44,517 bases of DNA from Escherichia phage vB_EcoM_SHAK7858: the sequence record OR594183; one strand, written 5' to 3'. Positions within the stretch are counted from its first letter, which is position 1. Each line of letters starts with the position of its first letter. The notes below the pieces were generated by a model. It ran no database searches. It saw only the letters and a list, made by a program, of their open reading frames with translations, and was not told the DNA's origin. The position numbers were made by a program, and so were the translations under genes. Shown here one piece after another: positions 4,898 to 35,535 of this stretch.

Positions 4898-5284
4898 ATG
4901 AATCTTAAAGCAACCGTCGTAGCAGGAGCATGTTTCATCATCCTGGCTTACACACACGGCATTTATCAGTACCGCAGCGGCTGGCACGAAGGCCGGGCGA
5001 ATCTCGTTTCGCAGCAACAGCAGAAAGCGCAGGCGGAGTTAGCGAAGAAAACACAACGGCAGCAGCAGGACGAATCAAAGGCCGCCGCCGCCGACAACGA
5101 AGGCAAGACGAAATCAGAGGTGATTACCCGTGAAGTCGTTAAATACATTAAAACGCCGGGTCGCAGCGTGTGCACTTTCGACGATGCTCGCGTCCTGCTC
5201 AAGTCCCACGCCGTCGCAAACGCTAATTCCATTACCGGATACGACGATGATGCAGCCTCCGTGCAAACTGGCAGCGCCAAGTAG
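4898..5284 (+). CDS. Inner-membrane spanin component (Rz-like)
   Basis: N-terminal transmembrane segment followed by a Gln/Ala-rich helical region; a lipoprotein ORF overlaps in another frame. Confidence 0.55.
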   Translation: MNLKATVVAGACFIILAYTHGIYQYRSGWHEGRANLVSQQQQKAQAELAKKTQRQQQDESKAAAADNEGKTKSEVITREVVKYIKTPGRSVCTFDDARVLLKSHAVANANSITGYDDDAASVQTGSAK

Positions 5285-5393
5285 CGACGCTGACGAGGAT
5301 TTAGCTATCGACGTTCAGAACGCTGAATGCGTACGGCAGCTGCGGCTGAAAGTGTTCATGTTGCAGGATTACGTGAGGAATATTCTGGAATAG
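5130..5393 (+). CDS. Outer-membrane spanin component (Rz1-like lipoprotein), GTG start
   Basis: Signal peptide with lipobox LASC, proline-rich mature region, overlaps the 3' part of the Rz-like gene in a different frame and extends beyond it. Confidence 0.55.
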   Translation: MKSLNTLKRRVAACALSTMLASCSSPTPSQTLIPLPDTTMMQPPCKLAAPSSDADEDLAIDVQNAECVRQLRLKVFMLQDYVRNILE

Positions 5394-5475
5394 TTGCCTT
5401 GTATGTTGGAATAATTTATTCTTGACATGTAAATCCGGGAGGCCCGGATTCCAACGTCCAGGGGACATACTGACT

Positions 5476-6180
5476 ATGAATCGTTTTTTACGTTATCCGT
5501 TCCAGGAAGAAGCTGGGGCAGAAGATAAAGCTGGTGGCGGTGACGCGCCTAAAATGTTCACCGCTGAAGAAGTTCAGGCGCTGATTGAGAAAGAAGTTGC
5601 CGGGCTTAAGGCTAATCAGGAAGCATTGTTGGCGGAGAAGAAAGAAGCCGCTCGCAAAGCAAAAGAGGCCGAAGAAGAACGGCAGCGCGCGCACCAGGAG
5701 GCGTTAAAAGCCGCTGGTAAGATGGATGAGTTCGAAAAGACGATTCGTAGCCAGTATGACCCGGTGCTAGCCGAGAAAGATGGTCGCATCTCCAAAATGG
5801 CAGAGCGTATCCTCGGCAGCGAACGTAAAGCGGTGCTAGGCTCTTTCGCGGGTGACTTTATTACCCCAGAAGCAGTGGACATTCTTGCTCCGTTCGTTAA
5901 GACTGAGTTTGAAGGCGATGACGTGGTTACTAAGTTTGTTGGCGCAGACGGCAACGTAATCACGACTGACCCGGAACAGTTCCGCAAATACTTGCGAGAA
6001 CACAAAGCGTTTTCACATTTGATTAAAGCAAATGCAGCTTCCGGCGGCGGGGCTTCCGGTAGCAAAGGCGGCGGGGCCGCACCAGCGTTTAAAGACATGA
6101 GTGAAGCGGAGCGTATCGCTCTGTACGAATCGAACCCTGCCGAATTTGAACGGCAACTTAAAGCCCTGAGGAAAAAATAA
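5476..6180 (+). CDS. Head scaffolding protein (putative)
   Basis: Helical, charged, Ala/Glu/Lys-rich protein immediately upstream of the major capsid gene. ORF track opens at 5422 (TTG); the first ATG is at 5476. Confidence 0.5.
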   Translation: MNRFLRYPFQEEAGAEDKAGGGDAPKMFTAEEVQALIEKEVAGLKANQEALLAEKKEAARKAKEAEEERQRAHQEALKAAGKMDEFEKTIRSQYDPVLAEKDGRISKMAERILGSERKAVLGSFAGDFITPEAVDILAPFVKTEFEGDDVVTKFVGADGNVITTDPEQFRKYLREHKAFSHLIKANAASGGGASGSKGGGAAPAFKDMSEAERIALYESNPAEFERQLKALRKK

Positions 6181-24226: not shown

Positions 24227-24364
24227 CTACTCTTCTGATAACTTCTCCAGTACAAACGCCAGTTGCGCATTAGCGGCGTCTCTTTGCTGACGTAGCCGCA
24301 GAACCTCTTCTTCGAGTTCCTTGATACGTTTTTGCAATGCCGGAATTGGGGCTATGATGTTCAT
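24227..24364 (-). CDS. Hypothetical small coiled-coil protein (45 aa)
   Basis: Uninterrupted frame with ATGA start/stop overlap with the upstream Toprim gene; Leu/Glu/Arg-rich heptad-like sequence. Confidence 0.35.
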   Translation of the reverse strand: MNIIAPIPALQKRIKELEEEVLRLRQQRDAANAQLAFVLEKLSEE

Positions 24365-24876
24365 CTGGTAAATTTCCTCGCAAGATACGTTATTTCTTCT
24401 TCACAAAGTTCATCAAGGTCGTTAGATACAAATCCTCTGGTGAATGTTTTGCTGAACTTTAATCCAGCTTTATCATTGTCGCCAGCGCACACCCAGTCAT
24501 ACGGCAAAAGTGACATTTGCTGCCGTAGGTCTGTTGATATATTTGACCCCAGTGCGCTTACAGCATTGAACCCGCAATTCATCAAGGCTACGGCTTTGAA
24601 TATGCTTTCGGTAACAAATACCACCCCGCTTCCCGGCAAATACTCAAGCCCCCATAAACACGGCCTTGTTGTTCTGGTAAAGTACCGCGCGTCTTTAGGG
24701 TTTTTACAGTTCTTTTCGGCATGTGGTTTGTAATGCTGGTATCCGCGAAGCCTACCGTCAAACCCCCACAGGTAAAACGTAGCTACTCCAGGGGCTAAGA
24801 CTACCTGGAGACGGTCAGCGTCAAACCCACGCGCCAGCAGATGAGCTTTAAGTAGAAACTCTTCGAAATCCATCAT
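24361..24876 (-). CDS. Toprim-domain protein
   Basis: Conserved Glu (VFVTES) and DxD (AGDNDKAG) arrangement typical of the Toprim fold. Confidence 0.5.
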   Translation of the reverse strand: MMDFEEFLLKAHLLARGFDADRLQVVLAPGVATFYLWGFDGRLRGYQHYKPHAEKNCKNPKDARYFTRTTRPCLWGLEYLPGSGVVFVTESIFKAVALMNCGFNAVSALGSNISTDLRQQMSLLPYDWVCAGDNDKAGLKFSKTFTRGFVSNDLDELCEEEITYLARKFTR

Positions 24877-26303
24877 TTCTTACCTCGTCTCTTCATGTAA
24901 TTAAGCAACTCTTCCTGTACCGATTTCTTCTCGTCGGTACGCGCGGCGACAACCTCGTCCAGAGTGTCTTTAGCAACGATGTGATAAAGGAACACCGGGC
25001 GCTCGTGACCCGCCTGTTTCTGGCGGACTGGGCCTATGCGCTCAACAACCTGCAAATAGTGCTCAAGGTTCCAGCCTTGCGAGATGAACGCCAGATGATG
25101 ACCCCCGTCCTGTAAATTCAAACCATGCCCGGCTGACGCAGGATGCACGCATAAAATCTCGATTTCCCCACGGTTCCACGCTTCCATCTGCTTGTTCCCC
25201 CTAGCGCCTTTGGCGAACGCCTGTGCCTGTGGGAATCGCTTAAGGATACGCTCCAGTTCGTGTTTAAACTGATAGGCTACCAGCAACGGCGCACCCTGCA
25301 ACTCCTCAACAATCGACTCGAGCGCATCCAGTTTCGTGTCGTGCACTTTCTCCCAGTCTTTGGTCGCTTCGCCATCCGGCCCTGACACATACACGGCACC
25401 AGATGCAATCTGCAAGCACTTTGAGGTCTTCGCCGCAGCGTTAGCCGCTTCAACTTCCCCGCTCTCCAGTTCTGCGAATAACTTCTCCTCCATATCTATG
25501 TACGCCTGACGCGCTTTCTTCGGCAGGTCTATTTCCACCGGTACGATAACAGGCGCTTCACAACCAAACCACTCGGCAGGGTCTATGGTCAGGCTGATGT
25601 CTTTCATCTTCTGATGAATCTCATTATCCGCACCCGGTCGTGCATGATACTCGCGGGCCATAGCCGATTTACCTTTCTGTACCGAGTTAAACCAGCGGTC
25701 TGTGAATGCCGTATACGAAGAGCCGAGGCGCTCGCCAGCGTCGATAAACCAGTTCTGACCCCACAAGTCTTTGAGGCCGTTTGGTGACGGTGTGCCCGTC
25801 AGGTTGATGAAACGCTTAACCTTTCCGAACGCGACCTTGCTGAGCGCCTTTGCCCGCTTGCTACCACCCGAACGGCTGCGGAACGATTTAAGCTTCGTGC
25901 TTTCATCGGCAACGATAACCGTAAAAGGCCAGTCGTCTTTGCCGTAGTAGTCAATTAGCCACTCGATAACTTCGTAGTTAGTGCACACCACGTTAGCATC
26001 TGACTCCAGCGCCGCGATGCGGCGCTTCTCCGAACCAGTTGCATCTACGACACGCAGACAAGGGAATTGCCATTTCTCTTGTTCAGCGGGCCACGTACCG
26101 GACGCAACACGTAACGGGGCAAGGATTAACACGCGGTCCTCTTCCGTAAGCTGCCCGTTGCGGAACAGGCGGTTGAGCACCCACATAGTGGAGGAGGTTT
26201 TACCTCCCCCCATTCCGCACCAGATATTACAGCGCGGGTGTTGCAGCATGAACGAAGTCATGAGCTTCTGGTACTCTCGACGGATAAATTTAGACATGTT
26301 CAA
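24873..26303 (-). CDS. SNF2-family DNA-dependent ATPase/helicase
   Basis: Walker A GMGGGKT, DExx-type box VIVADESTKLK, LTGTP motif. Confidence 0.8.
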   Translation of the reverse strand: MNMSKFIRREYQKLMTSFMLQHPRCNIWCGMGGGKTSSTMWVLNRLFRNGQLTEEDRVLILAPLRVASGTWPAEQEKWQFPCLRVVDATGSEKRRIAALESDANVVCTNYEVIEWLIDYYGKDDWPFTVIVADESTKLKSFRSRSGGSKRAKALSKVAFGKVKRFINLTGTPSPNGLKDLWGQNWFIDAGERLGSSYTAFTDRWFNSVQKGKSAMAREYHARPGADNEIHQKMKDISLTIDPAEWFGCEAPVIVPVEIDLPKKARQAYIDMEEKLFAELESGEVEAANAAAKTSKCLQIASGAVYVSGPDGEATKDWEKVHDTKLDALESIVEELQGAPLLVAYQFKHELERILKRFPQAQAFAKGARGNKQMEAWNRGEIEILCVHPASAGHGLNLQDGGHHLAFISQGWNLEHYLQVVERIGPVRQKQAGHERPVFLYHIVAKDTLDEVVAARTDEKKSVQEELLNYMKRRGKK

Positions 26304-26494
26304 TCCTTAACGTAGAGTACCAGCTCTTTACGCCCGAACGCGGTAACGTTGCCTGTTACATCTTCGATAACCAGTTTACCGTTCGACTCGACGAACACCG
26401 TATCAACGGCAACAGGGCGACGTGTCTTAACGTTGAAAATCATGTCGCCAGGTACGATGTCACGTGCTGGTTTACGGTCATATTCGTGTTTCAT
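26300..26494 (-). CDS. Hypothetical protein (64 aa)
   Basis: ORF with SD aagga, first gene after the promoter at 26528-26556. Confidence 0.45.
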   Translation of the reverse strand: MKHEYDRKPARDIVPGDMIFNVKTRRPVAVDTVFVESNGKLVIEDVTGNVTAFGRKELVLYVKD

Positions 26495-26524
26495 TTCTCA
26501 ATTCCTTATATTGTTGGTGTAAGG

Positions 26525-26809
26525 CTAACTATAATAGTTCGCTATTAGGTCGTCAACCTGTTTAAACGAACCAACGACAAAAACATTTGCACCGCGTTTA
26601 CGGAATCTTTCATGCTCGCGTAACTGGTGGGGGTCAGGCTTCGTGTTTTCGTCTTTCTTAATCTCGACGAACCAGATGATACCGCCGGGGAGAATTACCA
26701 GCAGGTCCATGGCGGCTCGCCGGCCTTCAAATGCCATCTTGCGAACGAGGCCGCCGATGGCCTCGAATTGCTCTTTTGCGTATTTCTGTATTTTGCCTTC
26801 CGGGGTCAT
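26525..26809 (-). CDS. VRR-NUC domain nuclease
   Basis: PD-(D/E)XK-like pattern D...EIK (DLLVILPGGIIWFVEIKK) in a 94 aa protein adjacent to an SNF2 helicase. Confidence 0.7.
   Translation of the reverse strand: MTPEGKIQKYAKEQFEAIGGLVRKMAFEGRRAAMDLLVILPGGIIWFVEIKKDENTKPDPHQLREHERFRKRGANVFVVGSFKQVDDLIANYYS
26528..26556 (-). promoter_or_regulatory. Sigma70-like promoter (TTGACG-N17-TATAGT) with embedded palindrome ATAATAG-N4-CTATTAG
   Basis: Read on the minus strand; overlaps the 3' end of the VRR-NUC coding region. Confidence 0.45.
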
Positions 26810-26958
26810 GAGCGCAGAACCCAGGTTATAAACGCTCCTCCGAGAACGGCAACGCCAACAAACTTAAAGAACAGGCCGTAACAGAACATCGCAGCTATTC
26901 CCGCGCCGAGTAACAGTGCGAGCATGGTTACTATGGTCCTAAATACAAACATTGTCAT
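26806..26958 (-). CDS. Hypothetical small membrane protein (50 aa)
   Basis: Uninterrupted frame, SD gaggggtg, ATGA coupling to the VRR-NUC gene, two hydrophobic segments. Confidence 0.35.
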   Translation of the reverse strand: MTMFVFRTIVTMLALLLGAGIAAMFCYGLFFKFVGVAVLGGAFITWVLRS

Positions 26959-27040
26959 AATACACACCCCTCACGTTTCGTATGCTCAATCCCGCAGCGC
27001 GGACAGATTCGGCAGTCTTCTTCGTATAACCAGTAAATTT

Positions 27041-27172
27041 TCATTCCAGCACCCACAGATAAATTGCTACTAACATACCCAATACGGCGACCATCATGCC
27101 GTATCGGCCCTCGTGACAGTAGACAACTGCGGCGAATCCCGCCAGTACCGCGATAATCAGTTTACTTAGCAT
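27041..27172 (-). CDS. Hypothetical small membrane protein (43 aa)
   Basis: Uninterrupted frame overlapping the 3' end of the polymerase gene; hydrophobic. Confidence 0.3.
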   Translation of the reverse strand: MLSKLIIAVLAGFAAVVYCHEGRYGMMVAVLGMLVAIYLWVLE

Positions 27173-29342
27173 AGCGCTTCATCTCCGCACCTTCCGCCAC
27201 AAGAGGGAACCCCTCCGCCCATTCCGGTAATTCACACATCAACCGCTCAAGCTCTGCAACATTGTATTCCGGTAAATCAGGTGTCTCGCAGATAATCTCA
27301 TCGTGTACATGAAGCACAATATGGTAGCCGTTTGCCTCTACGTTCAGCAGGGCGTTAGCCAGCAAATCACGGCACAGCGCCTGAGTACAGTTTTCCACCA
27401 GTTTACCAGAGTAGGTGTACTGGAAACCCCACTGCCTGGTTAACTGATTTTCACCCTGATACTTGATGCGCACGTTAGTAGAAACTTTTCCGTCTTCGTC
27501 TGTCTCTTTCGACACGCTCAACCCGACGCCCGGGTATGACATAACGCGACCTGACGGCAACGTCATGCGCAACCACCAACCAGCGACTTTGTTGCCGTTG
27601 TTGTCTGTTTCTACGTTGCGAGAAAACTTAACCCCGCGAGGGCCAGCGGTGAACTCTTTCCCCGGATTACGGATTGCTGCCATAGCTGCGTCTTCAATAT
27701 CACGCCAGAAAGCTACTGTTTCCGGGTGGGACTCCCGCCACATACGCTTAATTGCGTCGCATGTACGCCAGACTTTCTTATCAAGAATATATGATGGTCG
27801 GTCATCCTTTTCACCCGGACGCGGTGGTCGCTTGGCTTCCTGAATACGCGCCCACTCGTACCCGCGCGCGGTAGCGGCCCAGATGTGGTCAGGGAAAGTA
27901 CCGTCCATTGTTTTAGCCATATCAACCAGGTCAAGGCCGAGGTTTTTAGCGAACTGAACGAAAGCACCGACACCGCCCGCGTATCCGAGGCCCAATTCGC
28001 AGGCTTTACCAATCTGGCGTAAGTCTTTACGTTCTTTCTTAATGTAATCCGGCTCCATGCCGAACATCTTACCTGCTGTTACGCAGTAAATATCCAGTCC
28101 GGCGCGGAACGTATCTAGCGCGGTTTCTTCGCCCGCCAGCCACGCAAGACCGCGGCCTTCGACGTTAGAGTAATCGGCGATGACAAACTTATGTCCGGCT
28201 TCCGGGATAATGCAGCTACGAACGGTCGACGCCGTCAGCTTGGCTACGTCAAATCGGCGGTGCGCCCGGCCCTTAAGTAACGCTGAAATGCCTTTATCCA
28301 GTTCATCATCGTGATAGTACCCACGCGCCAGGTTCTGTGGCTGGAAGCCTTTACCCGCGAACCGTAACGTACGCTTTGCCCCACCGTACTGGATACAACC
28401 GCGGCGTCGGTCGTCCGACGAGCGGCCTAACAGCAGCGGGTTATATTTCGTGGACGCTGTTGACGCGGCCCCGAGGCGCATTTCGATAATCATCCGGGCG
28501 TCGTCCGGTAAATCATCATCTGCCAACAGGTCGTTAAGCGTCGACTTCTGTGCATTGTGTATGCGGTGCGCGGGCGCAAGTTCACGCAGAATCGGAAGGA
28601 AGTCTTTACCGGTAAGCGAGCCGCCGTATTTACGTTGAGCTTCTTCCTGTAACTGTGCCTTGTGCTTCTCTACGGCTTCAATCGCGGCTTCCGCCAGTGC
28701 GACGTCAACCTTAAATCCGCGGTCGTTGATTAACTGGTCAAGTTCCAGTACACGGTCTTCGAACTCGGAGTTACCCCAACGCGGCAGCTTATGGAAGACT
28801 TCACGCATCGCAGTGATGTCGCTCACGGCGTACCTGATGAACATCGCCCACTCGTCAGGGTGAGTTTCTGCGGTGTAGCGGCGGATTTTGTAGTTCTTCG
28901 GCGTCGGTTTAGAGAAACGCTTAATCAGAGCCTTGCCGCGTTTATCTTTCGCGTTGTCTGCAGACACGCCCAGCACTTCGCACAGCGCATCAAGAGAACC
29001 CGGCAGCGCGTGACGGAACGCCCAAATCATAGTATCAATGGTGTTACTTACCGGAATATCAAAGTCCCAGCAGTGTTTCATGATTAGGCGATCGAAAAGT
29101 CCACCGTTGTGCCACACCATCTTGATGCGGCTGTTGGGCTTAACAAGGCGGCGCAGTGCGCGGTGTAAATCCCCCGGCATGTCGCTGCCGTCGGTGCAAT
29201 CCCATACCCGCACAGGTTCGTCGTCAAAAGCATATGTACAGATAAGCACTTCGGTTGACGGGTGTTCGGCGTAAGCGTAAGAACCGACTTTCTTCAAATC
29301 GGCTTCTGAGAATGTTTCAAAGTCTAAGAACAGGTAACTCAT
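27162..29342 (-). CDS. Family A DNA polymerase with N-terminal 3'-5' exonuclease domain
   Basis: Exo I FLDFETFS; polymerase motif A DYSNVEGR, motif B K..ELGLGYAGG, motif C HVHDEI. Confidence 0.9.
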   Translation of the reverse strand: MSYLFLDFETFSEADLKKVGSYAYAEHPSTEVLICTYAFDDEPVRVWDCTDGSDMPGDLHRALRRLVKPNSRIKMVWHNGGLFDRLIMKHCWDFDIPVSNTIDTMIWAFRHALPGSLDALCEVLGVSADNAKDKRGKALIKRFSKPTPKNYKIRRYTAETHPDEWAMFIRYAVSDITAMREVFHKLPRWGNSEFEDRVLELDQLINDRGFKVDVALAEAAIEAVEKHKAQLQEEAQRKYGGSLTGKDFLPILRELAPAHRIHNAQKSTLNDLLADDDLPDDARMIIEMRLGAASTASTKYNPLLLGRSSDDRRRGCIQYGGAKRTLRFAGKGFQPQNLARGYYHDDELDKGISALLKGRAHRRFDVAKLTASTVRSCIIPEAGHKFVIADYSNVEGRGLAWLAGEETALDTFRAGLDIYCVTAGKMFGMEPDYIKKERKDLRQIGKACELGLGYAGGVGAFVQFAKNLGLDLVDMAKTMDGTFPDHIWAATARGYEWARIQEAKRPPRPGEKDDRPSYILDKKVWRTCDAIKRMWRESHPETVAFWRDIEDAAMAAIRNPGKEFTAGPRGVKFSRNVETDNNGNKVAGWWLRMTLPSGRVMSYPGVGLSVSKETDEDGKVSTNVRIKYQGENQLTRQWGFQYTYSGKLVENCTQALCRDLLANALLNVEANGYHIVLHVHDEIICETPDLPEYNVAELERLMCELPEWAEGFPLVAEGAEMKRYAK

Positions 29343-29357
29343 TATTTTTGACCCCTA

Positions 29358-29388
29358 GTAAAAAGGCCCAATGAAGGGCCTTAGTTAA
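29358..29388 (-). terminator. Hairpin plus T-run on the minus strand between the SSB-like and polymerase genes
   Basis: aggccc-aatgaa-gggcct with A-run upstream on the + strand. Confidence 0.45.
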
Positions 29389-29401
29389 ATTGATTCAGAT
29401 A

Positions 29402-30028
29402 TTAGCGGCGGCGACGTTCGCGGCGCGGTGCTTCGTCTTCTTCGTCGTCTTCCAGGTCATTGACGCTCGCAGCGACTTTAGAACCGCCGAACGCTTTGCC
29501 TTCGCCAACGTATTTAATCGCCAGCAGGTTAACGCCGAGGACTTTGTATTTCTGGCTGAACCAGATTTCAACGCTTACGTTAGCTAAGCATCCGCTGTAA
29601 ACCTGTTCACCTTCAATCTGTTCACCGTCTACATTGAAGTCCTGTTCTACCTGAGTCTCACCTTTTTTAGAGGTTACAATCAGCGGCTGCTTCTGTGCCT
29701 TCGCTTTGAAGTAGAAGCCTTCCGGGAAGTCTTCAAACGGATTGTCACGCTCGGCAATGTCTTTAATCGCACATTTATCCATGTGCTTACCTTCGCCGTA
29801 GTTGGACTTCATCCACTTCTCGGCGGCGGCTGCACCTAACGCTTCTTCAACTACAGCGTAAACGGTGTCGTAGAGCGCGTCGATTTGCGCGTGGTCGGAC
29901 GGCAGGATAATAGTCGCGCTGTACTGACCTTTAGTGATTGAACCATCATCATTTTCACGGTCTTTTTCGCGTTCGAATACGTTAACCCATGCAGTGTTTA
30001 CTTTACGCAGATTCAGTTTAATGCCCAT
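29402..30028 (-). CDS. SSB-like protein (DUF2815-like) with acidic C-terminal tail
   Basis: C-terminal DLEDDEEDE tail, position beside the polymerase and Cas4-like nuclease. Confidence 0.5.
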   Translation of the reverse strand: MGIKLNLRKVNTAWVNVFEREKDRENDDGSITKGQYSATIILPSDHAQIDALYDTVYAVVEEALGAAAAEKWMKSNYGEGKHMDKCAIKDIAERDNPFEDFPEGFYFKAKAQKQPLIVTSKKGETQVEQDFNVDGEQIEGEQVYSGCLANVSVEIWFSQKYKVLGVNLLAIKYVGEGKAFGGSKVAASVNDLEDDEEDEAPRRERRRR

Positions 30029-30082
30029 CGTGATTTCTCGCTTTTAAGTTTACTCCGGGAAGCTGCCCGGCCAGTGATTAGA

Positions 30083-30111
30083 ACTATAATAGCTAACTAT
30101 TCATGTGTCAA
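30083..30111 (-). promoter_or_regulatory. Sigma70-like promoter (TTGACA-N17-TATAGT) with embedded palindrome ATAATAG-N4-CTATTCA
   Basis: Read on the minus strand, upstream of the SSB-like gene; palindrome at 30086-30103. Confidence 0.45.
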
Positions 30112-30330
30112 ATAAAATTTTGCAATAGGGATTATGTTCTCGAAATTAAGCATATCGGCCGGTTCGAACTCATCTTCTACAGGGTCGTATCGCATCATGG
30201 TACCGTTCAAGAACGTGAACGATTCCGAGTGTAGATACCCATCCCAGCGCCATACCATCAAAAAATCTTTATCAGTCGGCATTTCATTTACTTGAATAAT
30301 TCTAAATCCTCCTCTGTAACCTGATTCCAC
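30097..30330 (-). CDS. Hypothetical protein (77 aa)
   Basis: ORF overlapping the Cas4-like nuclease gene end. Confidence 0.4.
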   Translation of the reverse strand: MESGYRGGFRIIQVNEMPTDKDFLMVWRWDGYLHSESFTFLNGTMMRYDPVEDEFEPADMLNFENIIPIAKFYLTHE

Positions 30331-31538
30331 TCAGGACGTTTGTCATCTGCCGTTGCGACACATGGTGCGCCTGGCTTACGTGTAATGAAGTCTTTCAGTC
30401 CATCTTCAGGCACAACTTTAACCGCTTCGGTTGGCGTCATGAGCACTTGCTTCATTAGCGCTATGCCATACTTGCCAGCCACTTTCTCCGCGTCTTTCCA
30501 CACGCGATTACCCTGACGACCTTCAACCAGCTTGTACCCAGGCACTTTCTTACCGGAATGCAAAGCGGCAGCCATAGCTTTCTCAACCTTATCGATGTGC
30601 TGGCGCAGCAACGGCAACTTCTCATACTCAGCTACGAGTTGTTCAGGCGTCAGTTCCAGCGCAAAGTCGTCCTCCAGTTCTTCCGCCAGTACAGAATTAA
30701 CCGTCTTTGTACGCGCGGCGCACTGTTCAGAGAACCGACACCACTGACAACCATCGACCGACGGCTTGAAGTCCGACGCTTTCAGGTTCTTCTTGCCACG
30801 GGAATAGGCATCTAACGCTAACAGCGCACGTTTCTGCGCGAACTTAGCGAACAGTTCCAGACCTTCAACCGAGATGTCCCACTCCGACGCGCCCCCGGCG
30901 TACGGCTGGAAGATGACCAGGCGCACTACTGAGATGTTATAGCGTCTCTTGAGTCGACGATAAACACCGAGAGCGTAAAGCATAAGCTGCTTGTTTTCTT
31001 TCGCTTCGACGCGATGCCGCCCTGTTTTCAGGTCGCCGATAATGAGCATGTGCTCGTCGGTGTTTGCCAGTTCCTGGACAGCAACGAGGTCAGCGGTTCC
31101 GAACGTCTCAACGCCTTCATACCCCGGATGCAATACCTCAGTAAGATTGACCCGCATTTCCAGCTTAGCGTAAGCCGCTACGTCGATAATCGCTTTGCAG
31201 TAGTCGGTGTACTTGCGCACCTGCTCAATCATGTCCGCCGTAATCAGTACAGCACCTTTCATCGGGCTGATTAGCGCCTTAATCTGGCCTTTACCCTCGT
31301 CCAGCACGTAAGCGCCAACTTCACGCTCTAACGGCAGTGCAGTTCCGCGGATATAGGCGTTGAGATGGACCTCCGCTATGGTGTGGCACGCTGTACCTGT
31401 AACGGCGGCTTTACCTGACGTGTTGGGAATATCTTTCTCACAGGCCAGCGATGCGGCGCAGCTTAGCCACTTTTTAGCCCCTGACGGCGACAGCAGGGCG
31501 TGCACATCGTTATTGCCGCCGCGTTCTTTTAAAATCAT
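30288..31538 (-). CDS. PD-(D/E)XK nuclease with Cys cluster (Cas4-like / DUF2800-like)
   Basis: GTADLV...IIGDLKTG nuclease core plus CQWCRFSEQC cluster. Start taken at the ATG with SD gggagg; ORF track extends to 31553. Confidence 0.7.
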   Translation of the reverse strand: MILKERGGNNDVHALLSPSGAKKWLSCAASLACEKDIPNTSGKAAVTGTACHTIAEVHLNAYIRGTALPLEREVGAYVLDEGKGQIKALISPMKGAVLITADMIEQVRKYTDYCKAIIDVAAYAKLEMRVNLTEVLHPGYEGVETFGTADLVAVQELANTDEHMLIIGDLKTGRHRVEAKENKQLMLYALGVYRRLKRRYNISVVRLVIFQPYAGGASEWDISVEGLELFAKFAQKRALLALDAYSRGKKNLKASDFKPSVDGCQWCRFSEQCAARTKTVNSVLAEELEDDFALELTPEQLVAEYEKLPLLRQHIDKVEKAMAAALHSGKKVPGYKLVEGRQGNRVWKDAEKVAGKYGIALMKQVLMTPTEAVKVVPEDGLKDFITRKPGAPCVATADDKRPEWNQVTEEDLELFK

Positions 31539-31807
31539 ACCCTGACCTCCCACTGGTCAATTAAATGTCGTGTCTTGTGGTCACAATGCATCGCCCAGCT
31601 ATACATCGACTCGAAGACATAAAAGTCAGGCTTGGCGAAAGTTGTGCGCTTAATCTGTGACACGTGACGGCCTATGTCTTTAGGCCGTGGTACTTTTCCT
31701 AAGTACGCCATCTCTTCCATCTGGTGCGCACCGGACGGAGCACGCAATAGCCATAGCGCCTCTGTGTTATCACGCCTGTCGACGGCTCGGTAGAGTTGGT
31801 AAATCAT
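31535..31807 (-). CDS. Hypothetical protein (90 aa)
   Basis: ORF translationally coupled (ATGA) to the nuclease gene. Confidence 0.45.
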   Translation of the reverse strand: MIYQLYRAVDRRDNTEALWLLRAPSGAHQMEEMAYLGKVPRPKDIGRHVSQIKRTTFAKPDFYVFESMYSWAMHCDHKTRHLIDQWEVRV

Positions 31808-31850
31808 AATTCCGACCCTCAGTTAAAGCGGCCCGAAGGCCGCGAGATAG

Positions 31851-32369
31851 TTATTCTTCTTCGAAATACTTGTTCTTGATTGCTGTCAGGCGTTCCAGGT
31901 ACTCAACCAGGTCTTCGTCTTTAATCGCGGCAATCTTCATCTTCTTACCTGTGAACTCTTCCAGCAGTTCATCAGAATCATCGCACGCGGCATCGCTAGG
32001 ACCTTCATTAATTGCATCGTCGATGGCCTGAATCTGGTCACGCAGAGACTTGTAATCGACTTCTTCTTTCTCTTCTTCCGGTTCTGGCGCAGGTTCCTCT
32101 ACTTTAGCTTTACGCGGCTTGCGTTTTGGCTTCTCTTCCTCCGCCGGTTTAGTGTCAACTACGTCTTCACCCTCGACCGGGATTTCTTTTGTTTCTTCTT
32201 TTACAACAGTAGGCGTGATTGTTGCAGTTTCTGCGACACCACTGTCGACGTCTTTACCATATGGCGCCGTGATAGCCTTCGGCAGTTCAGTACGGCGTGC
32301 ACTGTTCGCAGCAATCAGTTCATGCGCAACTACGAAACGTTCCAGTAATACTAAGAATTTCTCTAACAT
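31851..32369 (-). CDS. Hypothetical acidic protein (172 aa) with a basic KPKRKPRKAK patch
   Basis: Glu/Asp-rich ORF, second gene of the leftward operon. Confidence 0.5.
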   Translation of the reverse strand: MLEKFLVLLERFVVAHELIAANSARRTELPKAITAPYGKDVDSGVAETATITPTVVKEETKEIPVEGEDVVDTKPAEEEKPKRKPRKAKVEEPAPEPEEEKEEVDYKSLRDQIQAIDDAINEGPSDAACDDSDELLEEFTGKKMKIAAIKDEDLVEYLERLTAIKNKYFEEE

Positions 32370-32393
32370 TATTTATTCTCCTGTTTATTTGGG

Positions 32394-32621
32394 TTACTCG
32401 CCGTCGCCTTCTGTAAGGCTATCGTCTATTAATTCAAATTTACCGTTTGGGTGTTGAATAGCTTCTTGCCCGCAATGGTCGCAGACAACAAGTTTATCGA
32501 ACCCATCAAACTCGTCCCCGACTACGCAAGAAAGTACAAATTTATGTTTTGTGCACACTTCCTGCGATTCTCCGAAAATTGCTAGAAAACCTTTAGCTAT
32601 GGCTCCCGTTATTGTGTTCAT
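32394..32621 (-). CDS. Small zinc-ribbon-like protein (75 aa)
   Basis: Cys pairs CTKHK...C and CDHCG; first gene after the promoter at 32650-32678. Confidence 0.45.
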   Translation of the reverse strand: MNTITGAIAKGFLAIFGESQEVCTKHKFVLSCVVGDEFDGFDKLVVCDHCGQEAIQHPNGKFELIDDSLTEGDGE

Positions 32622-32649
32622 ATCCGCCCCTCTCGTTTGGTATGGGCTA

Positions 32650-32678
32650 ACTATAATAGCGAACTATTCACATGTCAA
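32650..32678 (-). promoter_or_regulatory. Leftward promoter (TTGACA-N17-TATAGT) with embedded palindrome ATAATAG-N4-CTATTCA
   Basis: Read on the minus strand; palindrome at 32653-32670; part of the divergent control region next to the HTH gene. Confidence 0.5.
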
Positions 32679-32696
32679 TGGGCTTTTCTAAAATAA

Positions 32697-32714
32697 TTAA
32701 TATGGTACTATTCA
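32697..32714 (+). promoter_or_regulatory. Second, degenerate palindrome copy (TTAATAT-N4-CTATTCA) overlapping a TACTAT -10 for the HTH gene
   Basis: Lies about 40 bp from the first site and about 30 bp upstream of the HTH start codon; SD aaggag follows. Confidence 0.4.
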
Positions 32715-32742
32715 CATATCAACTGACTAAGGAGTAATTGAC

Positions 32743-32958
32743 ATGCAACCATCTGAACTAGGTATCCGTGTAGAACAACGCCGTAAAGAACTCGGCATCT
32801 CCCAGCGCCGTTTGGCGGCCCTGACCGGCGTTTCCCAGGGCGCGATTAACCAACTGGCACTTGGAGTAACTCAGGACGTCCGCCCGGCAACGCTGTTCAA
32901 ACTGGCGGAAGTTCTGGAAGTAGACGCCAAGTGGCTGGCGTTAGGTGAAGGGGCTTAA
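32743..32958 (+). CDS. Cro/CI-type (XRE-family) helix-turn-helix DNA-binding protein
   Basis: Classic HTH LGISQRRLAALTGVSQGAINQL; strong SD; terminator downstream. Confidence 0.85.
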   Translation: MQPSELGIRVEQRRKELGISQRRLAALTGVSQGAINQLALGVTQDVRPATLFKLAEVLEVDAKWLALGEGA

Positions 32959-32975
32959 AGCCCCTTTCTTTTTAT
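32949..32975. terminator. Rho-independent terminator after the HTH gene
   Basis: aggggc-ttaa-gcccct followed by ttctttttat. Confidence 0.6.
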
Positions 32976-33286
32976 AGCAACTTATCGAGTTCTTCCAAAT
33001 TCTTAATAGTGTGTTGCACGTTCAGGTACTGAATCCAGGCGAGAAACCACGCACTTACAGGAAAACTTATAACAATAGTTATCGATATAATTAATTTGAA
33101 AAGGCACTTTATAATCTCTGCCAGCGTCATGTCTAAAATGTCTTTAAACTCCGCAAAAATCCCCGCTGCATACACACAAAAAGTCCACCAGTTGTTGCTT
33201 ACAGCGGAAACACATGTCAGGTATGACGGGCGGTATCCTGCCTTCACTGCTTTAAACGGGTTATCTATAAAATCGTAAATATTCAT
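32972..33286 (-). CDS. Hypothetical membrane protein (104 aa), AT-rich
   Basis: Hydrophobic helices; noticeably lower GC than flanking genes. Confidence 0.45.
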   Translation of the reverse strand: MNIYDFIDNPFKAVKAGYRPSYLTCVSAVSNNWWTFCVYAAGIFAEFKDILDMTLAEIIKCLFKLIISITIVISFPVSAWFLAWIQYLNVQHTIKNLEELDKLL

Positions 33287-35535
33287 TCCAAATCCTCCTC
33301 GGTCACTGTCAGCATTTCATTCGGTTCGTATATTGTCTTCGGAATCTTGTTATCTGTTATCATGGTGTTCAGTCTGTAACGGCCTGGGATTATCTGATTG
33401 TTTTCGTCAGTACCCGGAACAAGATACCCAGCCTCAACCATTTTCTTAATCTTCCCGCGTTCTATGGCTTCTTTGGAGTTAAACGCCTTTGCGTTGGGGT
33501 CAGACTGCGCGAGCTTATTCGCTGCGGATACCGTGATGCCCTCGTTGCCGTTGTAGGTCCCCTCCGCCAGTTCAAACGCCGCGAGTATCGTGGCCTCGGA
33601 ACTGTTGACGGCGTTCTCTATGGTTTTACGTACATTTTGTTTACCTTCGTTAGTTAACCCTTCTTCCCTCTCTTTCTCCTCGTCGGTCTTGAATGGCTCG
33701 AAGCCCCACGGCATCAATACAAGCGCCTTGTGCGGCTCAGGCAGGTCGAGGTTTACTATTGTGCCGTATTCCTCTGTGCTACCGAGGAACTCAACCGCGC
33801 GGTACTCTTTCGGCGGCGGTGCTTCACGGAACTGTACAGACTCCAGTACCATGCCAACCGTCTTCTGTTGCGGACCGTGCTTAAATTTAGAGTGGTATAC
33901 GTTTATCTGACGGTCGGTAGCGCGTTCGATTGTCAGTTCCACGTCGACACCCGCATACAATGCTCCACTGCCGCGGGCTTTCTTTCCGCCCTTCGGAGTA
34001 TGGTGAACGACACCGACAGCGGCTTTAGTTGCATCGCGCACTTCTTTCAGGATGGCGATAACTTTACCCATACCGATTGCCGTTGATGAACTGTTCTCGT
34101 CGAACTTATCAATCGTCAGGGCCAGCGTCTGGTTAAGGGTGTCGAAGGCAACCATGCCAATAGGTTCATCCCCTGCGGTTTCGCGCATCCTGCGGATTAG
34201 AGCTGGAATTTTTTTATCACCATGCGTAGCGAGTATTTCGCCCATATCGATGACATGTACATAATCTTTACCTTCCTCGCCATATTTAGCCGCGAGTGCA
34301 TCAATACGTGTTCGTGTAGCTGCACCACCCTCGCCGTCAATATAGAAATGGTGGCAACGTTGGGTGTCAGCCCCCGCAAACCGGTACCCGGCGGCGCTCA
34401 GGTACATCATCCCCAGCGTATAGAATGATTTGTACGTGCCGGATTCCCCGACAATATCCCAGATACAATCCGACGGCATGTACCCCTCAACGACGAAATC
34501 AGCCTTTACCGGTTCTGGTAACTCGTCCTCTTCTTCAAGGTCTTCCAGCGTGCAAGTTACAGGCTCCTCGTTCTCTGTGCGGTGCAGTTCTTCAATCTCT
34601 TCATCCGGTAAATCAGGCAGAGCCGCACGAATGCTGTTAATACTGATAGGTTGCTTGTCTACGTTAAGCTCGTCCGGCAGGCCGCACATACGCAGGGCCA
34701 AATGCTGTCGGCGGTTAAGCTCGGTGCAAGCGCCGTTGTTTGTATGCTGGCACACAAAGCGCACTTCTTTACCATCAAGCATGATGCTTGTGGAGCCTTT
34801 GCCTGTATGCAGATGTTCGTTAGGGCATGGGACTTCGTACCCGCGCCCGGAAGATAAAGCGTCAAGGCCAAGCTCGGCTTCGCAGAAATGCGCTATATCA
34901 GCATTAAGCCCATACTCATCGGCGGCAAGTGTCTTAACTTCACGTTTACTCAACCCCATCTCTTCGGCTTTCTTGATGTACCGCTCGGCACGGATAACAC
35001 GCCCTTCTGTAACCGTTATCTTTGACTCTCTATGTGGCAGATAGATAAGGCGGTTGCCGTCTTCCGTGCAGTGGTCACGCAAGGCTTCATCTATTTCTAA
35101 CTCTGCACAAATAGCCCGTTGGACCATCCACGCGTCGTTAGAGTTAAACGGCGTGCGAGCCGGAACCAGAACGCGGAAGGCGTAATCACCGTTTTTACAC
35201 ACATGCTGATGCGATGCCGTTGTATGCAGAATATTGAAGAACGGTGCGTTCTTGAATTTGCGGGTAAGGTCGCGGTACTGAGTACGGTTGAGATGGTCAA
35301 AATCGAACTTAACCACACTGTCTTCCAGGATAGCGTTTTTACGGCGACCCCCAACAGGCGCAATAGCTTTCTGCTTAATCTTGGCAGCGTCGTACTCTTC
35401 CTTAGACCACGACGGATCCACGGATAAACGCTTCGATGTATCGCAGACATACTCCACAAACTGCTCGAGCGGCATCTCACGCGCTACAGGGTTTTTATCG
35501 AATGTGTTGCGCAGCGTTGCAAAAACAATATTCAT
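33283..35535 (-). CDS. DNA primase / RecA-like replicative ATPase fusion
   Basis: N-terminal primase-like region with a Cys/His zinc-binding segment; C-terminal Walker A GESGTYKS, Walker B MVAFDTL and VVHHTPKGG. Confidence 0.75.
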   Translation of the reverse strand: MNIVFATLRNTFDKNPVAREMPLEQFVEYVCDTSKRLSVDPSWSKEEYDAAKIKQKAIAPVGGRRKNAILEDSVVKFDFDHLNRTQYRDLTRKFKNAPFFNILHTTASHQHVCKNGDYAFRVLVPARTPFNSNDAWMVQRAICAELEIDEALRDHCTEDGNRLIYLPHRESKITVTEGRVIRAERYIKKAEEMGLSKREVKTLAADEYGLNADIAHFCEAELGLDALSSGRGYEVPCPNEHLHTGKGSTSIMLDGKEVRFVCQHTNNGACTELNRRQHLALRMCGLPDELNVDKQPISINSIRAALPDLPDEEIEELHRTENEEPVTCTLEDLEEEDELPEPVKADFVVEGYMPSDCIWDIVGESGTYKSFYTLGMMYLSAAGYRFAGADTQRCHHFYIDGEGGAATRTRIDALAAKYGEEGKDYVHVIDMGEILATHGDKKIPALIRRMRETAGDEPIGMVAFDTLNQTLALTIDKFDENSSSTAIGMGKVIAILKEVRDATKAAVGVVHHTPKGGKKARGSGALYAGVDVELTIERATDRQINVYHSKFKHGPQQKTVGMVLESVQFREAPPPKEYRAVEFLGSTEEYGTIVNLDLPEPHKALVLMPWGFEPFKTDEEKEREEGLTNEGKQNVRKTIENAVNSSEATILAAFELAEGTYNGNEGITVSAANKLAQSDPNAKAFNSKEAIERGKIKKMVEAGYLVPGTDENNQIIPGRYRLNTMITDNKIPKTIYEPNEMLTVTEEDLE

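What the first reader, a model, noticed from the sequence alone, without database searches (positions are those of the whole stretch)
24361..35535. Self-contained replication block combining a family-A polymerase with Cas4-like nuclease, SSB-like protein, VRR-NUC, SNF2 helicase, Toprim protein and primase/RecA-like ATPase
The motifs read directly support each call. The combination gives this small phage an unusually complete replisome. A separate 171-aa Toprim protein alongside a large primase-ATPase fusion is an unusual split of priming functions.
Basis: partly seen in the sequence, partly recalled or inferred. Interest (0 to 1): 0.4.

Follow-up and report, generated by a model that had tools for sequence, protein, structure and literature searches.

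The report
Standard phage replication module plus anti-retron gene
This is the ordinary, already catalogued DNA-replication gene block of a Kagunavirus-type E. coli phage, and its odd small "Toprim primase" is most likely not a primase subunit but a homologue of Rad, a phage protein reported to switch off bacterial retron defences.

Summary
VRR-NUC gets no Pfam hit but matches crystal structure 4QBN at E 2e-49. The primase half of the 750-aa protein rests on motifs only.

The block is not unusual. The window is a Guernseyvirinae (Kagunavirus) genome, and 487 phage records share this module.

The "split priming" idea is not supported. The 171-aa Toprim protein folds as a DnaG/T7-gp4 catalytic core but has no zinc-binding or helicase-binding domain. 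It is an accessory gene, found in 67 records against about 450 for the neighbouring helicase gene.

It is 49% identical (E 6e-40) to T5 ORF071. That gene was once annotated as a primase and is now named Rad (retron anti-defence). A 2023 preprint reports that Rad lowers retron msr-msd RNA and msDNA.

T5-like phages keep a separate primase beside their replicative helicase. Elsewhere, Rad-family genes lie among tRNA and RNA-repair genes and are twice fused to CCA-adding enzymes.

Verdict: already known, low interest, with a modest lead on how Rad works.

The parts
24227..24364 (-). 45-aa coiled-coil ORF, the last gene of the minus-strand operon. Its ATG overlaps the stop codon of the Toprim gene (ATGA).
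   Evidence: (phrog_5915, unknown function). It is also present in relatives that lack the Toprim gene.
24361..24876 (-). 171-aa Rad-like Toprim protein. It is a DnaG/T7-gp4-type RNA-polymerase-domain fold without a zinc-binding domain. It is an accessory gene and a probable retron anti-defence protein.
   Evidence: Toprim_2 23.1 bits and phrog_849 4e-48. AlphaFold2 pLDDT 96.4. Foldseek top hits are the DnaG core and the T7 gp4 primase fragment, E about 7e-6, TM 0.64. 49% identical to T5 ORF071/Rad, E 6e-40. Rad function comes from bioRxiv 10.1101/2023.03.15.532788.
24873..26303 (-). SNF2-family helicase, 476 aa.
   Evidence: SNF2-rel_dom 7e-13, Helicase_C 1.3e-3; phrog_62 2e-166.
26300..26494 (-). 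64-aa conserved protein of unknown function.
   Evidence: phrog_4879 1.7e-45.
26525..26809 (-). VRR-NUC Holliday-junction-resolving nuclease, 94 aa, with catalytic D35, E49 and K51.
   Evidence: phmmer 2.3e-49 to PDB 4QBN over residues 2-93. 4QBN is saNUC, a dimer that cleaves Holliday junctions (PMC4103454). phrog_93/5702. The Pfam VRR_NUC model gives no hit.
26806..26967 (-). 53-aa hydrophobic small protein.
   Evidence: phrog_14925; sequence.
27162..29342 (-). Family-A DNA polymerase with an N-terminal 3'-5' exonuclease domain, 726 aa. No 5' nuclease domain was detected.
   Evidence: DNA_pol_A 4.7e-16, DNA_pol_A_exo1 1.6e-4; phrog_17 4e-136; Pol I structures about 1e-7.
29402..30028 (-). 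gp2.5/Enc34-type ssDNA-binding and annealing protein (former DUF2815).
   Evidence: Enc34_ssDNA-bd 4.2e-16; phrog_112 4e-41; weak PDB hits 4JG2 and 5ODJ.
30097..30330 (-). Small conserved ORF of unknown function. The true start is probably downstream of the listed GTG.
   Evidence: phrog_6314 5.5e-24. Relatives annotate a 204-nt gene here.
30288..31553 (-). DUF2800 PD-(D/E)XK (Cas4-like) exonuclease with a C269-x2-C272-x5-C278 cysteine cluster. The true start is probably a few codons downstream.
   Evidence: DUF2800 5.2e-68, PDDEXK_1 1.8e-8; phrog_69 1e-120; cysteine positions. Relatives annotate 1239-1242 nt.
31535..32621 (-). Three conserved genes of unknown function: 31535-31807 (90 aa), 31851-32369 (172 aa, acidic) and 32394-32621 (75 aa, with four cysteines).
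   Evidence: phrog_4965, phrog_3127 and phrog_32657; no Pfam hits.
32743..32958 (+). 71-aa ORF on the opposite strand, annotated as a transcriptional regulator in Bas70. A hairpin with a T run at 32947-32967 overlaps its 3' end.
   Evidence: Not analysed further.
32972..33286 (-). 104-aa ORF with hydrophobic stretches, function unknown.
   Evidence: phrog_2638 7e-33; sequence.
33283..35535 (-). 750-aa replicative helicase-primase. Residues 1-230 are a putative AEP/PrimPol-like domain with invariant D78-x-D80, H111 and D154. A zinc cluster follows (C237, H243, C262, H264). Residues 328-517 are a RepA/AAA_25 RecA-type ATPase, followed by a C-terminal tail.
   Evidence: AAA_25 2e-20; phrog_3228 'replicative helicase-primase', 1026 bits; invariant residues in the six-sequence alignment A3. 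The N-terminal domain has no significant HMM, PDB or hhalign match.

Best explanation
The region is the conserved early replication and recombination gene block of a Guernseyvirinae (Kagunavirus-like) siphophage.

Inferred replication roles: the 750-aa protein supplies the replicative helicase, shown by its RepA-type ATPase domain. It probably also supplies priming through an N-terminal AEP-like domain plus zinc cluster, which is inferred from motifs only. The family-A polymerase with a proofreading domain copies the DNA. The gp2.5-type SSB coats and anneals single strands. The DUF2800 Cas4-like exonuclease, the SSB and the VRR-NUC resolvase form a recombination and junction-processing set. 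The SNF2 helicase probably remodels branched DNA. Ligation and primer removal presumably fall to the host, because no such gene was detected in the block.

The 171-aa Toprim gene at the far end of the operon is not part of this machine. It is an accessory gene, translationally coupled to its neighbours on both sides. It encodes a homologue of T5 Rad (retron anti-defence). It keeps the DnaG/gp4 catalytic-core fold and the Toprim acidic residues E90, D133, D135 and D153. It has no zinc-binding domain and no helicase-binding domain.

The most likely mechanism is inferred from the T5-family work and was not tested for this protein. Early in infection it would use its Toprim metal centre to destroy or block the retron msr-msd non-coding RNA. 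The host would then make no msDNA, and retron abortive infection would fail.
For: Identity of the block:
- 96% nucleotide identity to Escherichia phage vB_EcoS-22664BS2 (Guernseyvirinae; Kagunavirus), and 487 phage records match.
- The duf2800-gp2.5-polA module is described in PMC8093625.
- The VRR-NUC orthologue has a crystal structure and cleaves Holliday junctions.

The Toprim gene is accessory:
- About half of the 20 best-matching genomes start matching only at query base 513, which is the helicase stop.
- Bas70 has the helicase directly followed by the 45-aa ORF.
- The gene is found in 67 records, against about 452 records at 80% identity or more for the adjacent SNF2 gene.
- The Kenya phage paper notes a 'TOPRIM primase' in only two of its Jersey-like phages.
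- ATGA stop-start overlaps occur at both junctions.

Fold:
- AlphaFold2 pLDDT is 96.4.
- All 37 best Foldseek matches in PDB are DnaG, T7 gp4, Twinkle or T4 primase cores. RNase M5 appears only at E about 0.04.

Rad homology:
- T5 AAX12008.1 'DNA primase' sits between ORF070 and ORF072 in the tRNA region, so it is ORF071. PMC10644984 states that ORF071 is Rad.
- BLASTP of the window protein against it gives 81/167 identical residues, E 6e-40, over nearly the full length.
- Of the five residues whose mutation weakens Rad (R13, P33, I88, D135, E156), three are identical here (R16, D135, E156) and one is conservative (V88).

Rad is separate from replication in T5-like phages:
- FFH1 has a separate 296-aa primase next to its DnaB-like helicase and polymerase.
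- The mutants T5n and SP15m, and the natural phage BF23, lack the rad region and still propagate.
Against: - No experiment exists for the Guernseyvirinae orthologue. At 49% identity its function could differ. Two of the heterologous Rad homologues tested in the preprint gave only weak protection.
- The Rad work is a 2023 preprint with in vivo read-outs only. RNA cleavage by the purified protein has not been shown.
- Here the gene lies in a replication operon, coupled to the SNF2 helicase, and not in a tRNA or anti-defence island. The window has no tRNA genes.
- The protein keeps primase-like features: invariant G45, Y49, (R/K)64-Y65 and G76, plus the Toprim acids.
- The AEP assignment for the large protein, on which the argument 'priming is already covered' depends, has no statistical support.
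Confidence: 0.72

Rival explanations
1. The 171-aa Toprim protein is a real DnaG-type primase catalytic subunit that shares priming with the large primase-ATPase. It would borrow a zinc finger in trans, for example the C-H-C-H cluster of the 750-aa protein.
For: - The complete DnaG/gp4 RNA-polymerase-domain fold is present, with E90, D133, D135 and D153 intact.
- The gene sits in the replication operon and is translationally coupled to the helicase gene.
- PHROG and many GenBank records call it 'DNA primase'.
- Iyer et al. 2021 describe jumbo phages whose DnaG-like Toprim primase is accompanied by a separate primase-type zinc ribbon.
- One family member is fused to the DUF3268 zinc-finger domain.
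Against: - It is absent from most relatives that carry the same replication module, so it is dispensable.
- It has no zinc-binding or helicase-binding domain and no CxxC motif.
- The aspartate of the EGxxD metal-binding motif is a lysine here.
- The T5 orthologue is deletable, lies outside the replication cluster, and has a demonstrated anti-retron phenotype.
- In 36 other lineages none of my four replicative probes (T5 DnaB-like helicase, T5 primase, T5 polymerase, T7 gp4) matched nearby. These probes have limited sensitivity.
Confidence: 0.1
2. The Rad family is more broadly an RNA-end or structured-RNA processing enzyme belonging to phage tRNA/RNA-repair islands and working with CCA-adding enzymes. 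Anti-retron activity would be one outcome of that chemistry. In this phage it would act on host RNAs without a phage-encoded partner.
For: - Two independent fusions to CCA-adding enzymes. P0165 has the Rad-family domain at residues 31-176 followed by PolyA_pol, PolyA_pol_RNAbd and HD. P0064 has a Toprim domain plus the PolyA_pol head.
- One fusion to a HAD phosphatase, P0095.
- The gene overlaps or abuts a tRNA nucleotidyltransferase gene in Vibrio phage eugene 12A10.
- Contig L010 has the order RNA ligase, CCA enzyme, Rad-like gene, HD protein.
- In Erwinia phage Bosolaphorus it lies directly upstream of an RtcB-like gene.
- Among 36 clusters at 70% identity outside Guernseyvirinae, 22 have tRNA/tmRNA genes or a CCA enzyme, RtcB, Rnl1, Rnl2 or Pnk-HD within about 8 kb, and 17 within 3 kb.
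- Pfam confirmed the Rnl1, Rnl2-like, HD+kinase and metallophosphoesterase neighbours.
Against: - No matched random-window control was run, so the enrichment is not quantified.
- tRNA regions of large phages are also general anti-defence islands, so co-location may reflect shared selection and not shared chemistry.
- 14 of the 36 clusters show no such neighbour.
- The window has no tRNA or RNA-repair gene.
- Fusions might be gene-calling artefacts in metagenomes.
Confidence: 0.15
3. The 171-aa ORF is a decaying fragment of a former full-length primase gene with no present function.
For: Compared with DnaG, it is short and lacks the flanking domains.
Against: - It belongs to a large family of stand-alone proteins of similar length. 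394 representatives at the 50% clustering level score E<=1e-3, and most are 165-195 aa.
- The family has invariant residues and a very confident fold.
- Protein identity is 90-99% in 63 of the 67 Guernseyvirinae records that carry the gene.
Confidence: 0.02

Closest known systems
Replication module of Guernseyvirinae (Jerseyvirus / Kagunavirus), e.g. Escherichia phage vB_EcoS-22664BS2, Bas70-76, Jersey, SETP3
   Same: The gene order and content are the same: helicase-primase, DUF2800 nuclease, gp2.5-like SSB, PolA, VRR-NUC, SNF2 helicase. Nucleotide identity is 90-96% over 85-89% of the block.
   Different: Only accessory content differs. This genome has the Rad-like gene and lacks the DNA methyltransferase that many relatives carry next to the helicase.
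Rad (retron anti-defence), T5 ORF071 / phage SP15 ORF75 (Azam et al. 2023, bioRxiv 10.1101/2023.03.15.532788)
   Same: It is a single-domain Toprim protein of the same size, 49% identical over nearly the full length. It is an accessory gene, historically annotated 'DNA primase', and it conserves R, D135 and E156, whose mutation weakens Rad.
   Different: Here the gene sits at the end of a replication operon in a 44.5-kb siphophage without tRNA genes. In T5 it sits in the tRNA-rich anti-defence island. P33 of Rad is Y35 here. Activity of this orthologue is untested.
DnaG / T7 gp4 primase RNA-polymerase domain (PDB 1DDE, 1NUI)
   Same: The two-subdomain fold is the same: an N-terminal subdomain plus Toprim, with a TM-score up to 0.65 against T7 gp4. 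The Toprim glutamate and DxD motif are conserved.
   Different: There is no zinc-binding domain and no helicase-binding or helicase domain. EGxxD is ESxxK. The arginine of DnaG's GFGGR-type motif, recalled from memory, appears to be replaced by the invariant Y49. No primase activity is known for any family member.
AEP primase-helicase fusions of mobile elements (PrimPol-PV1 supergroup, e.g. PrimQH family; Kazlauskas et al. 2018, PMC5862659)
   Same: The 750-aa protein has the described domain order: putative AEP, Zn-binding domain, RepA-type helicase, C-terminal tail.
   Different: No profile or structural match to any AEP could be obtained here. Family membership is therefore not shown.
saNUC, VRR-Nuc protein of Salmonella Enteritidis typing phage 3 (PDB 4QBN)
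   Same: Near-identical sequence over 92 residues, E 2e-49. It is a dimer that cleaves Holliday junctions.
   Different: None of note. It is an orthologue.

Membership tests
Rad (retron anti-defence) family | Full-length sequence homology to T5 ORF071 / SP15 Rad | tested here: met
   BLASTP gives 81/167 identical residues, E 6e-40, covering residues 9-170 of 171. T5 AAX12008.1 is identified as ORF071/Rad.
Rad (retron anti-defence) family | Small single-domain architecture (about 170-190 aa) with a Toprim domain | tested here: met
   171 aa with Toprim_2 at residues 87-147. Family members are mostly 165-195 aa.
Rad (retron anti-defence) family | Conservation of the residues whose mutation weakens Rad (R13, P33, I88, D135, E156) | tested here: met
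   R16, D135 and E156 are identical, V88 is conservative, and P33 corresponds to Y35, which is not conserved. The mapping comes from the alignment; the residue list is.
Rad (retron anti-defence) family | Neutralises retron defence and lowers msr-msd RNA and msDNA | not testable with these tools
   Needs plaque assays and RNA/msDNA gels.
DnaG / T7 gp4-type primase | RNA-polymerase domain: N-terminal subdomain plus Toprim with the catalytic glutamate and DxD | tested here: met
   AlphaFold2 pLDDT 96.4. Foldseek E about 7e-6 to 1DDE and 1NUI. E90 is invariant; D133 is invariant in A2 and D135 nearly so.
DnaG / T7 gp4-type primase | N-terminal zinc-binding domain for template recognition | tested here: not met
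   The protein starts directly at the RNA-polymerase domain. Its five cysteines are scattered and there is no CxxC motif.
DnaG / T7 gp4-type primase | Helicase-interaction domain or fused helicase | tested here: not met
   The protein ends about 20 residues after the Toprim domain.
DnaG / T7 gp4-type primase | EGxxD metal-binding motif | tested here: not met
   The window has E90-S-I-F-K94. In alignment A2 this position is D in 60 of 80 members and K in 19 of 80.
duf2800-gp2.5-polA phage replication/recombination module | Adjacent, co-oriented DUF2800 nuclease, DUF2815/gp2.5-type SSB and family-A polymerase genes | tested here: met
   30288-31553, 29402-30028 and 27162-29342, all on the minus strand. 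The module is described in PMC8093625.
VRR-NUC nucleases | Homology to a solved VRR-Nuc structure and the PD-(D/E)XK catalytic residues | tested here: met
   4QBN at 2.3e-49 and 4QBO at 2.6e-6. D35, E49 and K51 are read from the sequence. The Pfam VRR_NUC model itself gives no hit.
AEP (archaeo-eukaryotic primase / PrimPol) fused to RepA-type helicase | RecA-type RepA/AAA_25 ATPase domain | tested here: met
   AAA_25 2e-20 at residues 328-517.
AEP (archaeo-eukaryotic primase / PrimPol) fused to RepA-type helicase | AEP catalytic domain recognisable by profile or structure | tested here: inconclusive
   Invariant D78-x-D80, H111 and D154 across six homologues at 28-38% identity. There is no Pfam, NCBIfam or PDB profile hit. 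hhalign to the NrS-1 primase aligned only the DxD motif, probability 1.6%. The single-sequence AlphaFold2 model is unusable, pLDDT 37.

The most novel reading that the evidence does not exclude
The Rad family, which includes this gene, is a zinc-finger-less DnaG/gp4-type polymerase-fold enzyme. Its native partners would be tRNA-repair enzymes, above all CCA-adding enzymes, to which it is fused in at least two proteins and adjacent in several phage lineages. On this reading it is a previously unrecognised component of phage RNA 3'-end or structured-RNA repair and counter-defence. Its anti-retron effect would be one instance of a broader activity on tRNA-like RNAs, and not simply cleavage of the retron non-coding RNA.
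Probability: 0.2. Interest if true: 0.55.

Novelty: already known. Interest (0 to 1): 0.18.

Why it matters
For the finding as stated, little changes: it is a textbook module of a well-sampled phage subfamily.

The practical value is an annotation correction. At least 67 Guernseyvirinae genomes carry this gene labelled 'DNA primase', 'Toprim primase' or 'hypothetical protein'. It is more likely a retron counter-defence gene. That matters for predicting host range and for choosing phages for therapy against retron-bearing E. coli and Salmonella.

Two observations offer testable leads on how Rad works, which is not yet established biochemically. Rad has a complete primase catalytic-core fold, and its relatives are repeatedly fused or adjacent to CCA-adding and RNA-repair enzymes.

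Tried and rejected
- Pfam VRR_NUC for the 94-aa protein gave no hit even at E<=10. The question was resolved by the PDB sequence search.
- The primase domain of the 750-aa protein had no hits in Pfam or NCBIfam, in PDB by phmmer, or in PDB with a six-sequence profile.
- The search for homologous proteins on that domain returned only two near-identical fragments.
- The IMG/VR scan for the same domain added only members of the same four phage groups.
- Single-sequence AlphaFold2 on that domain gave pLDDT 37 and is unusable.
- hhalign of the domain against the NrS-1 primase-polymerase aligned only the DxD motif at 1.6% probability.
- hhalign of the Toprim family against T7 gp4 aligned the expected motifs but with 2% probability. 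I therefore rely on Foldseek.
- phmmer of the Toprim protein against PDB gave no hits.
- I first pursued a pure 'tRNA-repair enzyme' reading of the Toprim protein from genomic context. Full-text searches combining Toprim with RtcB, CCA-adding enzyme or tRNA nucleotidyltransferase found no paper on it.
- The search 'toprim + T5-like + tRNA' then led to the Rad literature, which explains the T5 context. The repair idea is kept only as a secondary reading.
- Burroughs & Aravind 2016 (PMC5062991) is not held.
- I could not establish whether Salmonella phage vB_Sen_I1, a Rad homologue tested in the preprint, is a Guernseyvirinae member.
- The promoter and terminator scans were no richer than shuffled sequence.
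- A co-varying zinc-ribbon partner was considered. The only cysteine-rich small protein (32394-32621) is also present in Bas70, which lacks the Toprim gene.

Full report
**What is in the window.**
The minus strand from about 24.2 to 36.2 kb carries a run of co-oriented genes, matched by a negative GC skew across the same stretch. Megablast of 24361-35535 against 50,697 phage records finds 487 matching records. In 33 of them one match covers at least 80% of the query. The best is Escherichia phage vB_EcoS-22664BS2, at 96.3% identity over 89% of the query. That phage is classified in Guernseyvirinae, genus Kagunavirus. At 44.5 kb, the window is essentially one Kagunavirus-type genome, and the finding describes its replication module.

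**Checking each domain call.**
- SNF2 helicase: SNF2-rel_dom 7e-13.
- Family-A polymerase: DNA_pol_A 4.7e-16, with a weak match to the 3'-5' exonuclease domain. PHROGs and Pol I crystal structures agree.
- SSB-like protein: Enc34_ssDNA-bd, the former DUF2815, 4.2e-16.
- Cas4-like nuclease: DUF2800 5.2e-68 plus PDDEXK_1. It carries a C269-x2-C272-x5-C278 cysteine pattern. From my own knowledge, that pattern is the Cas4/AddB-type iron-sulfur signature.
- ATPase of the 750-aa protein: AAA_25 2e-20.
- VRR-NUC: the 94-aa protein gets no Pfam hit at all. However, it matches PDB 4QBN at E 2.3e-49 over residues 2-93. 4QBN is saNUC, the VRR-Nuc protein of Salmonella Enteritidis typing phage 3, a dimer that cuts Holliday junctions (PMC4103454).
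- Toprim: the Pfam score is marginal, 23.1 bits against a cut-off of 22.1, but phrog_849 gives 4e-48.

The "primase" half of the 750-aa protein (residues 1-330) has no significant match anywhere, and a single-sequence AlphaFold2 model was unusable (pLDDT 37).

What does support a primase domain is the following.
- Residues D78-x-D80, H111 and D154, and a C237/H243/C262/H264 cluster, are invariant across six homologues at 28-38% identity.
- The domain order (putative AEP, Zn-binding domain, RepA-type helicase, C-terminal tail) matches that described for PrimPol-PV1 families of mobile elements (PMC5862659).
- PHROG 3228 is named "replicative helicase-primase".

I treat the primase domain as likely but unproven.

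**Is the replisome unusual?**
No. The same gene order recurs in hundreds of Guernseyvirinae genomes. The duf2800-gp2.5-polA core is a described module in phages of both Gram-positive and Gram-negative hosts (PMC8093625). None of the domain searches on the ORFs of the block returned a ligase, 5' flap nuclease, sliding clamp or topoisomerase, so "self-contained" overstates it. A plus-strand ORF at 32743-32958 and several small genes of unknown function interrupt the block.

**The Toprim protein: structure.**
An 80-sequence alignment gave an AlphaFold2 model with mean pLDDT 96.4. The 37 best Foldseek matches in PDB are all primase catalytic cores: E. coli, M. tuberculosis, S. aureus, P. aeruginosa, B. 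subtilis and Aquifex DnaG, T7 gp4, Twinkle and T4 gp61. E-values go down to about 7e-6, and the TM-score reaches 0.65 against T7 gp4. RNase M5 and other Toprim-only proteins appear only at E of 0.04 or worse.

The protein is therefore a whole DnaG/gp4-type RNA-polymerase domain. It begins right at that domain and ends about 20 residues after it. It has no zinc-binding domain, no CxxC motif and no helicase-binding region. E90 is invariant in both family alignments; D133 is invariant in A2 and D135 and D153 are nearly invariant. The aspartate of the EGxxD motif is K94 here; in alignment A2 that position is D in 60 of 80 members and K in 19 of 80.

**The Toprim protein: distribution.**
Among the 20 best genome matches, about half begin matching only at query base 513, which is exactly the helicase stop codon. 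In Bas70 the helicase gene runs straight into the 45-aa terminal ORF. blastn and tblastn each find the gene in 67 phage records. The adjacent SNF2 gene is found in about 452 records at 80% identity or more. A survey of Kenyan Salmonella phages independently noted a "TOPRIM primase" in only two of its Jersey-like phages, 46% identical to a hypothetical protein of a T5-like phage (PMC10783031). Both gene junctions are ATGA stop-start overlaps. This is an accessory gene that replication does not require.

**The Toprim protein: identity.**
tblastn finds homologues at about 47% identity in T5-like phages. There the gene lies inside the tRNA array, while a separate 296-aa primase sits beside the DnaB-like helicase and the polymerase.

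[quoted passage not shown] The primary source is Azam et al. 2023 (bioRxiv 10.1101/2023.03.15.532788). It reports the following.
- Rad is a 189-aa protein in an approximately 8-kb anti-defence island.
- It neutralises retrons Ec67, Ec78, Ec83, Ec48 and Se72.
- It lowers msr-msd RNA and msDNA but not the reverse-transcriptase or effector transcripts.
- It has 541 homologues in 19,263 phage genomes.
- It is weakened by the mutations R13E, P33T, I88T, D135H and E156H.

In T5 (AY587007) the CDS annotated "DNA primase" lies between ORF070 and ORF072. The window protein is 49% identical to it (81/167, E 6e-40) over residues 9-170. Mapping through that alignment, R16, D135 and E156 are identical to the Rad residues, V88 is conservative, and Y35 replaces P33. 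The mutants T5n and SP15m and the natural phage BF23 lack the rad region and still propagate. I therefore file the window gene as a Rad-family member. I infer, without having tested it, that it protects this phage from retrons of E. coli and Salmonella.

**Additional context analysis, done before the Rad link emerged.**
An exhaustive HMMER search found 394 cluster representatives with E of 1e-3 or better, mostly stand-alone proteins of 165-195 aa. The few fused forms carry:
- a full CCA-adding enzyme in P0165, with the Rad-family domain at residues 31-176 followed by PolyA_pol, PolyA_pol_RNAbd and HD;
- a PolyA_pol head in P0064;
- a HAD phosphatase in P0095;
- the DUF3268 zinc-finger domain in P0052;
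- Mom or Arr-like domains in others.

Gene neighbourhoods include the following.
- An overlap with a tRNA nucleotidyltransferase gene in Vibrio phage eugene 12A10.
- The order RNA ligase, CCA enzyme, Rad-like gene, HD protein on a 209-kb contig.
- A position immediately upstream of an RtcB-like gene in an Erwinia jumbo phage.

I examined 51 loci outside Guernseyvirinae, which collapse to 36 clusters at 70% identity. In 22 clusters, tRNA/tmRNA genes or a CCA enzyme, RtcB, Rnl1, Rnl2-like or HD-kinase gene lie within about 8 kb. In 17 they lie within 3 kb (Pfam confirmation). None of my four replicative probes matched in these loci. Those probes were T5 DnaB-like helicase, T5 primase, T5 polymerase and T7 gp4.

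There are three caveats. No matched random-window control was run. The probes have limited sensitivity. The tRNA regions of large phages double as anti-defence islands, so co-location need not mean shared chemistry. I found no paper in the held library that connects this family with CCA-adding or RNA-repair enzymes.

**Mechanism and confidence.**
- Shown here: the gene content, the primase-core fold, the accessory status of the gene, and the homology to Rad.
- Taken from the literature: Rad's anti-retron phenotype and the depletion of retron non-coding RNA.
- Inferred: that this orthologue does the same thing; that it acts through its Toprim metal centre as a nuclease, by analogy with other Toprim nucleases such as RNase M5, OLD and AriB (general knowledge); and that the 750-aa protein alone supplies priming.

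I put about 0.7 on the combined statement, about 0.1 on a genuine auxiliary-primase role, and about 0.15-0.2 on a broader RNA-repair-linked function of which retron inhibition is one facet.

**Verdict.**
The finding is a correct reading of an ordinary, already catalogued module. Its one "unusual" element is explained by existing work as a mis-annotated counter-defence gene. Novelty: already known. Interest is low (0.18). There is a modest residual lead: Rad has a complete primase catalytic-core fold and is recurrently coupled to CCA-adding enzymes.

Noticed in passing
window 32743-32958 (+), hairpin 32947-32967: A 71-aa ORF on the opposite strand sits inside the minus-strand replication block, and a GC-rich hairpin with a T run overlaps its 3' end. 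The equivalent gene in Bas70 is annotated as a transcriptional regulator. It may divide the block into two transcription units.
   Followed up: no
window about 26300 (junction of the SNF2 gene and the 64-aa ORF), compared with L002 3926-4711: Many close relatives (Bas70, phiEc3/4, JSSK01 and others) carry a DNA (cytosine) methyltransferase gene between the SNF2 helicase and the 64-aa ORF. This genome has none there. It is a second accessory slot in the module.
   Followed up: partly
window 24361-24876, residue 94; alignments A1 and A2: In the Rad family the aspartate of the Toprim EGxxD motif is D in 60 of 80 members and K in 19 of 80 (alignment A2). The window protein and the T5 protein have K. 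This suggests two catalytic subtypes.
   Followed up: partly
L013 about 4989-5505 (Erwinia phage Bosolaphorus); also L090, L093, L103: The Rad homologue of Agricanvirus-type jumbo phages appears as two tblastn pieces and is only partly annotated. This could be a frameshift or an intervening sequence. In Bosolaphorus it lies directly upstream of an RtcB-like RNA ligase gene.
   Followed up: no
L007 7756-8111: A tmRNA gene (tag peptide ANDNATVLRAAA) lies 1.2 kb downstream of the Rad homologue on a 324-kb jumbo-phage contig.
   Followed up: no
P0084, P0115, L107 7110-8972; P0146: Three Rad-family proteins carry a C-terminal Arr-ms (ADP-ribosyltransferase-like) domain and one carries a Mom-family domain. 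These are unexplained fusion partners, distinct from the CCA-enzyme fusions.
   Followed up: no
L005, L011, L077, L100, L104, L115, L118 and others: A calcineurin-type metallophosphoesterase recurs within 4 kb of Rad homologues in 8 of 36 lineages. ATP-dependent DNA ligase recurs in 5, Band_7 proteins in 3 and HD_4-type HD proteins in 3.
   Followed up: partly
window 26806-26967 and about 26964-27095: Two very hydrophobic mini-ORFs, of 53 aa and about 43 aa, lie between the VRR-NUC and polymerase genes. They are conserved in relatives as small 'hypothetical proteins'.
   Followed up: no
window 30288-31553 and 30097-30330: The ORF starts listed mechanically (GTG at 31553 and at 30330) are probably too far upstream. 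Relatives annotate a 1239-1242-nt nuclease gene and a 204-nt small gene, which removes the apparent 43-nt overlap.
   Followed up: partly
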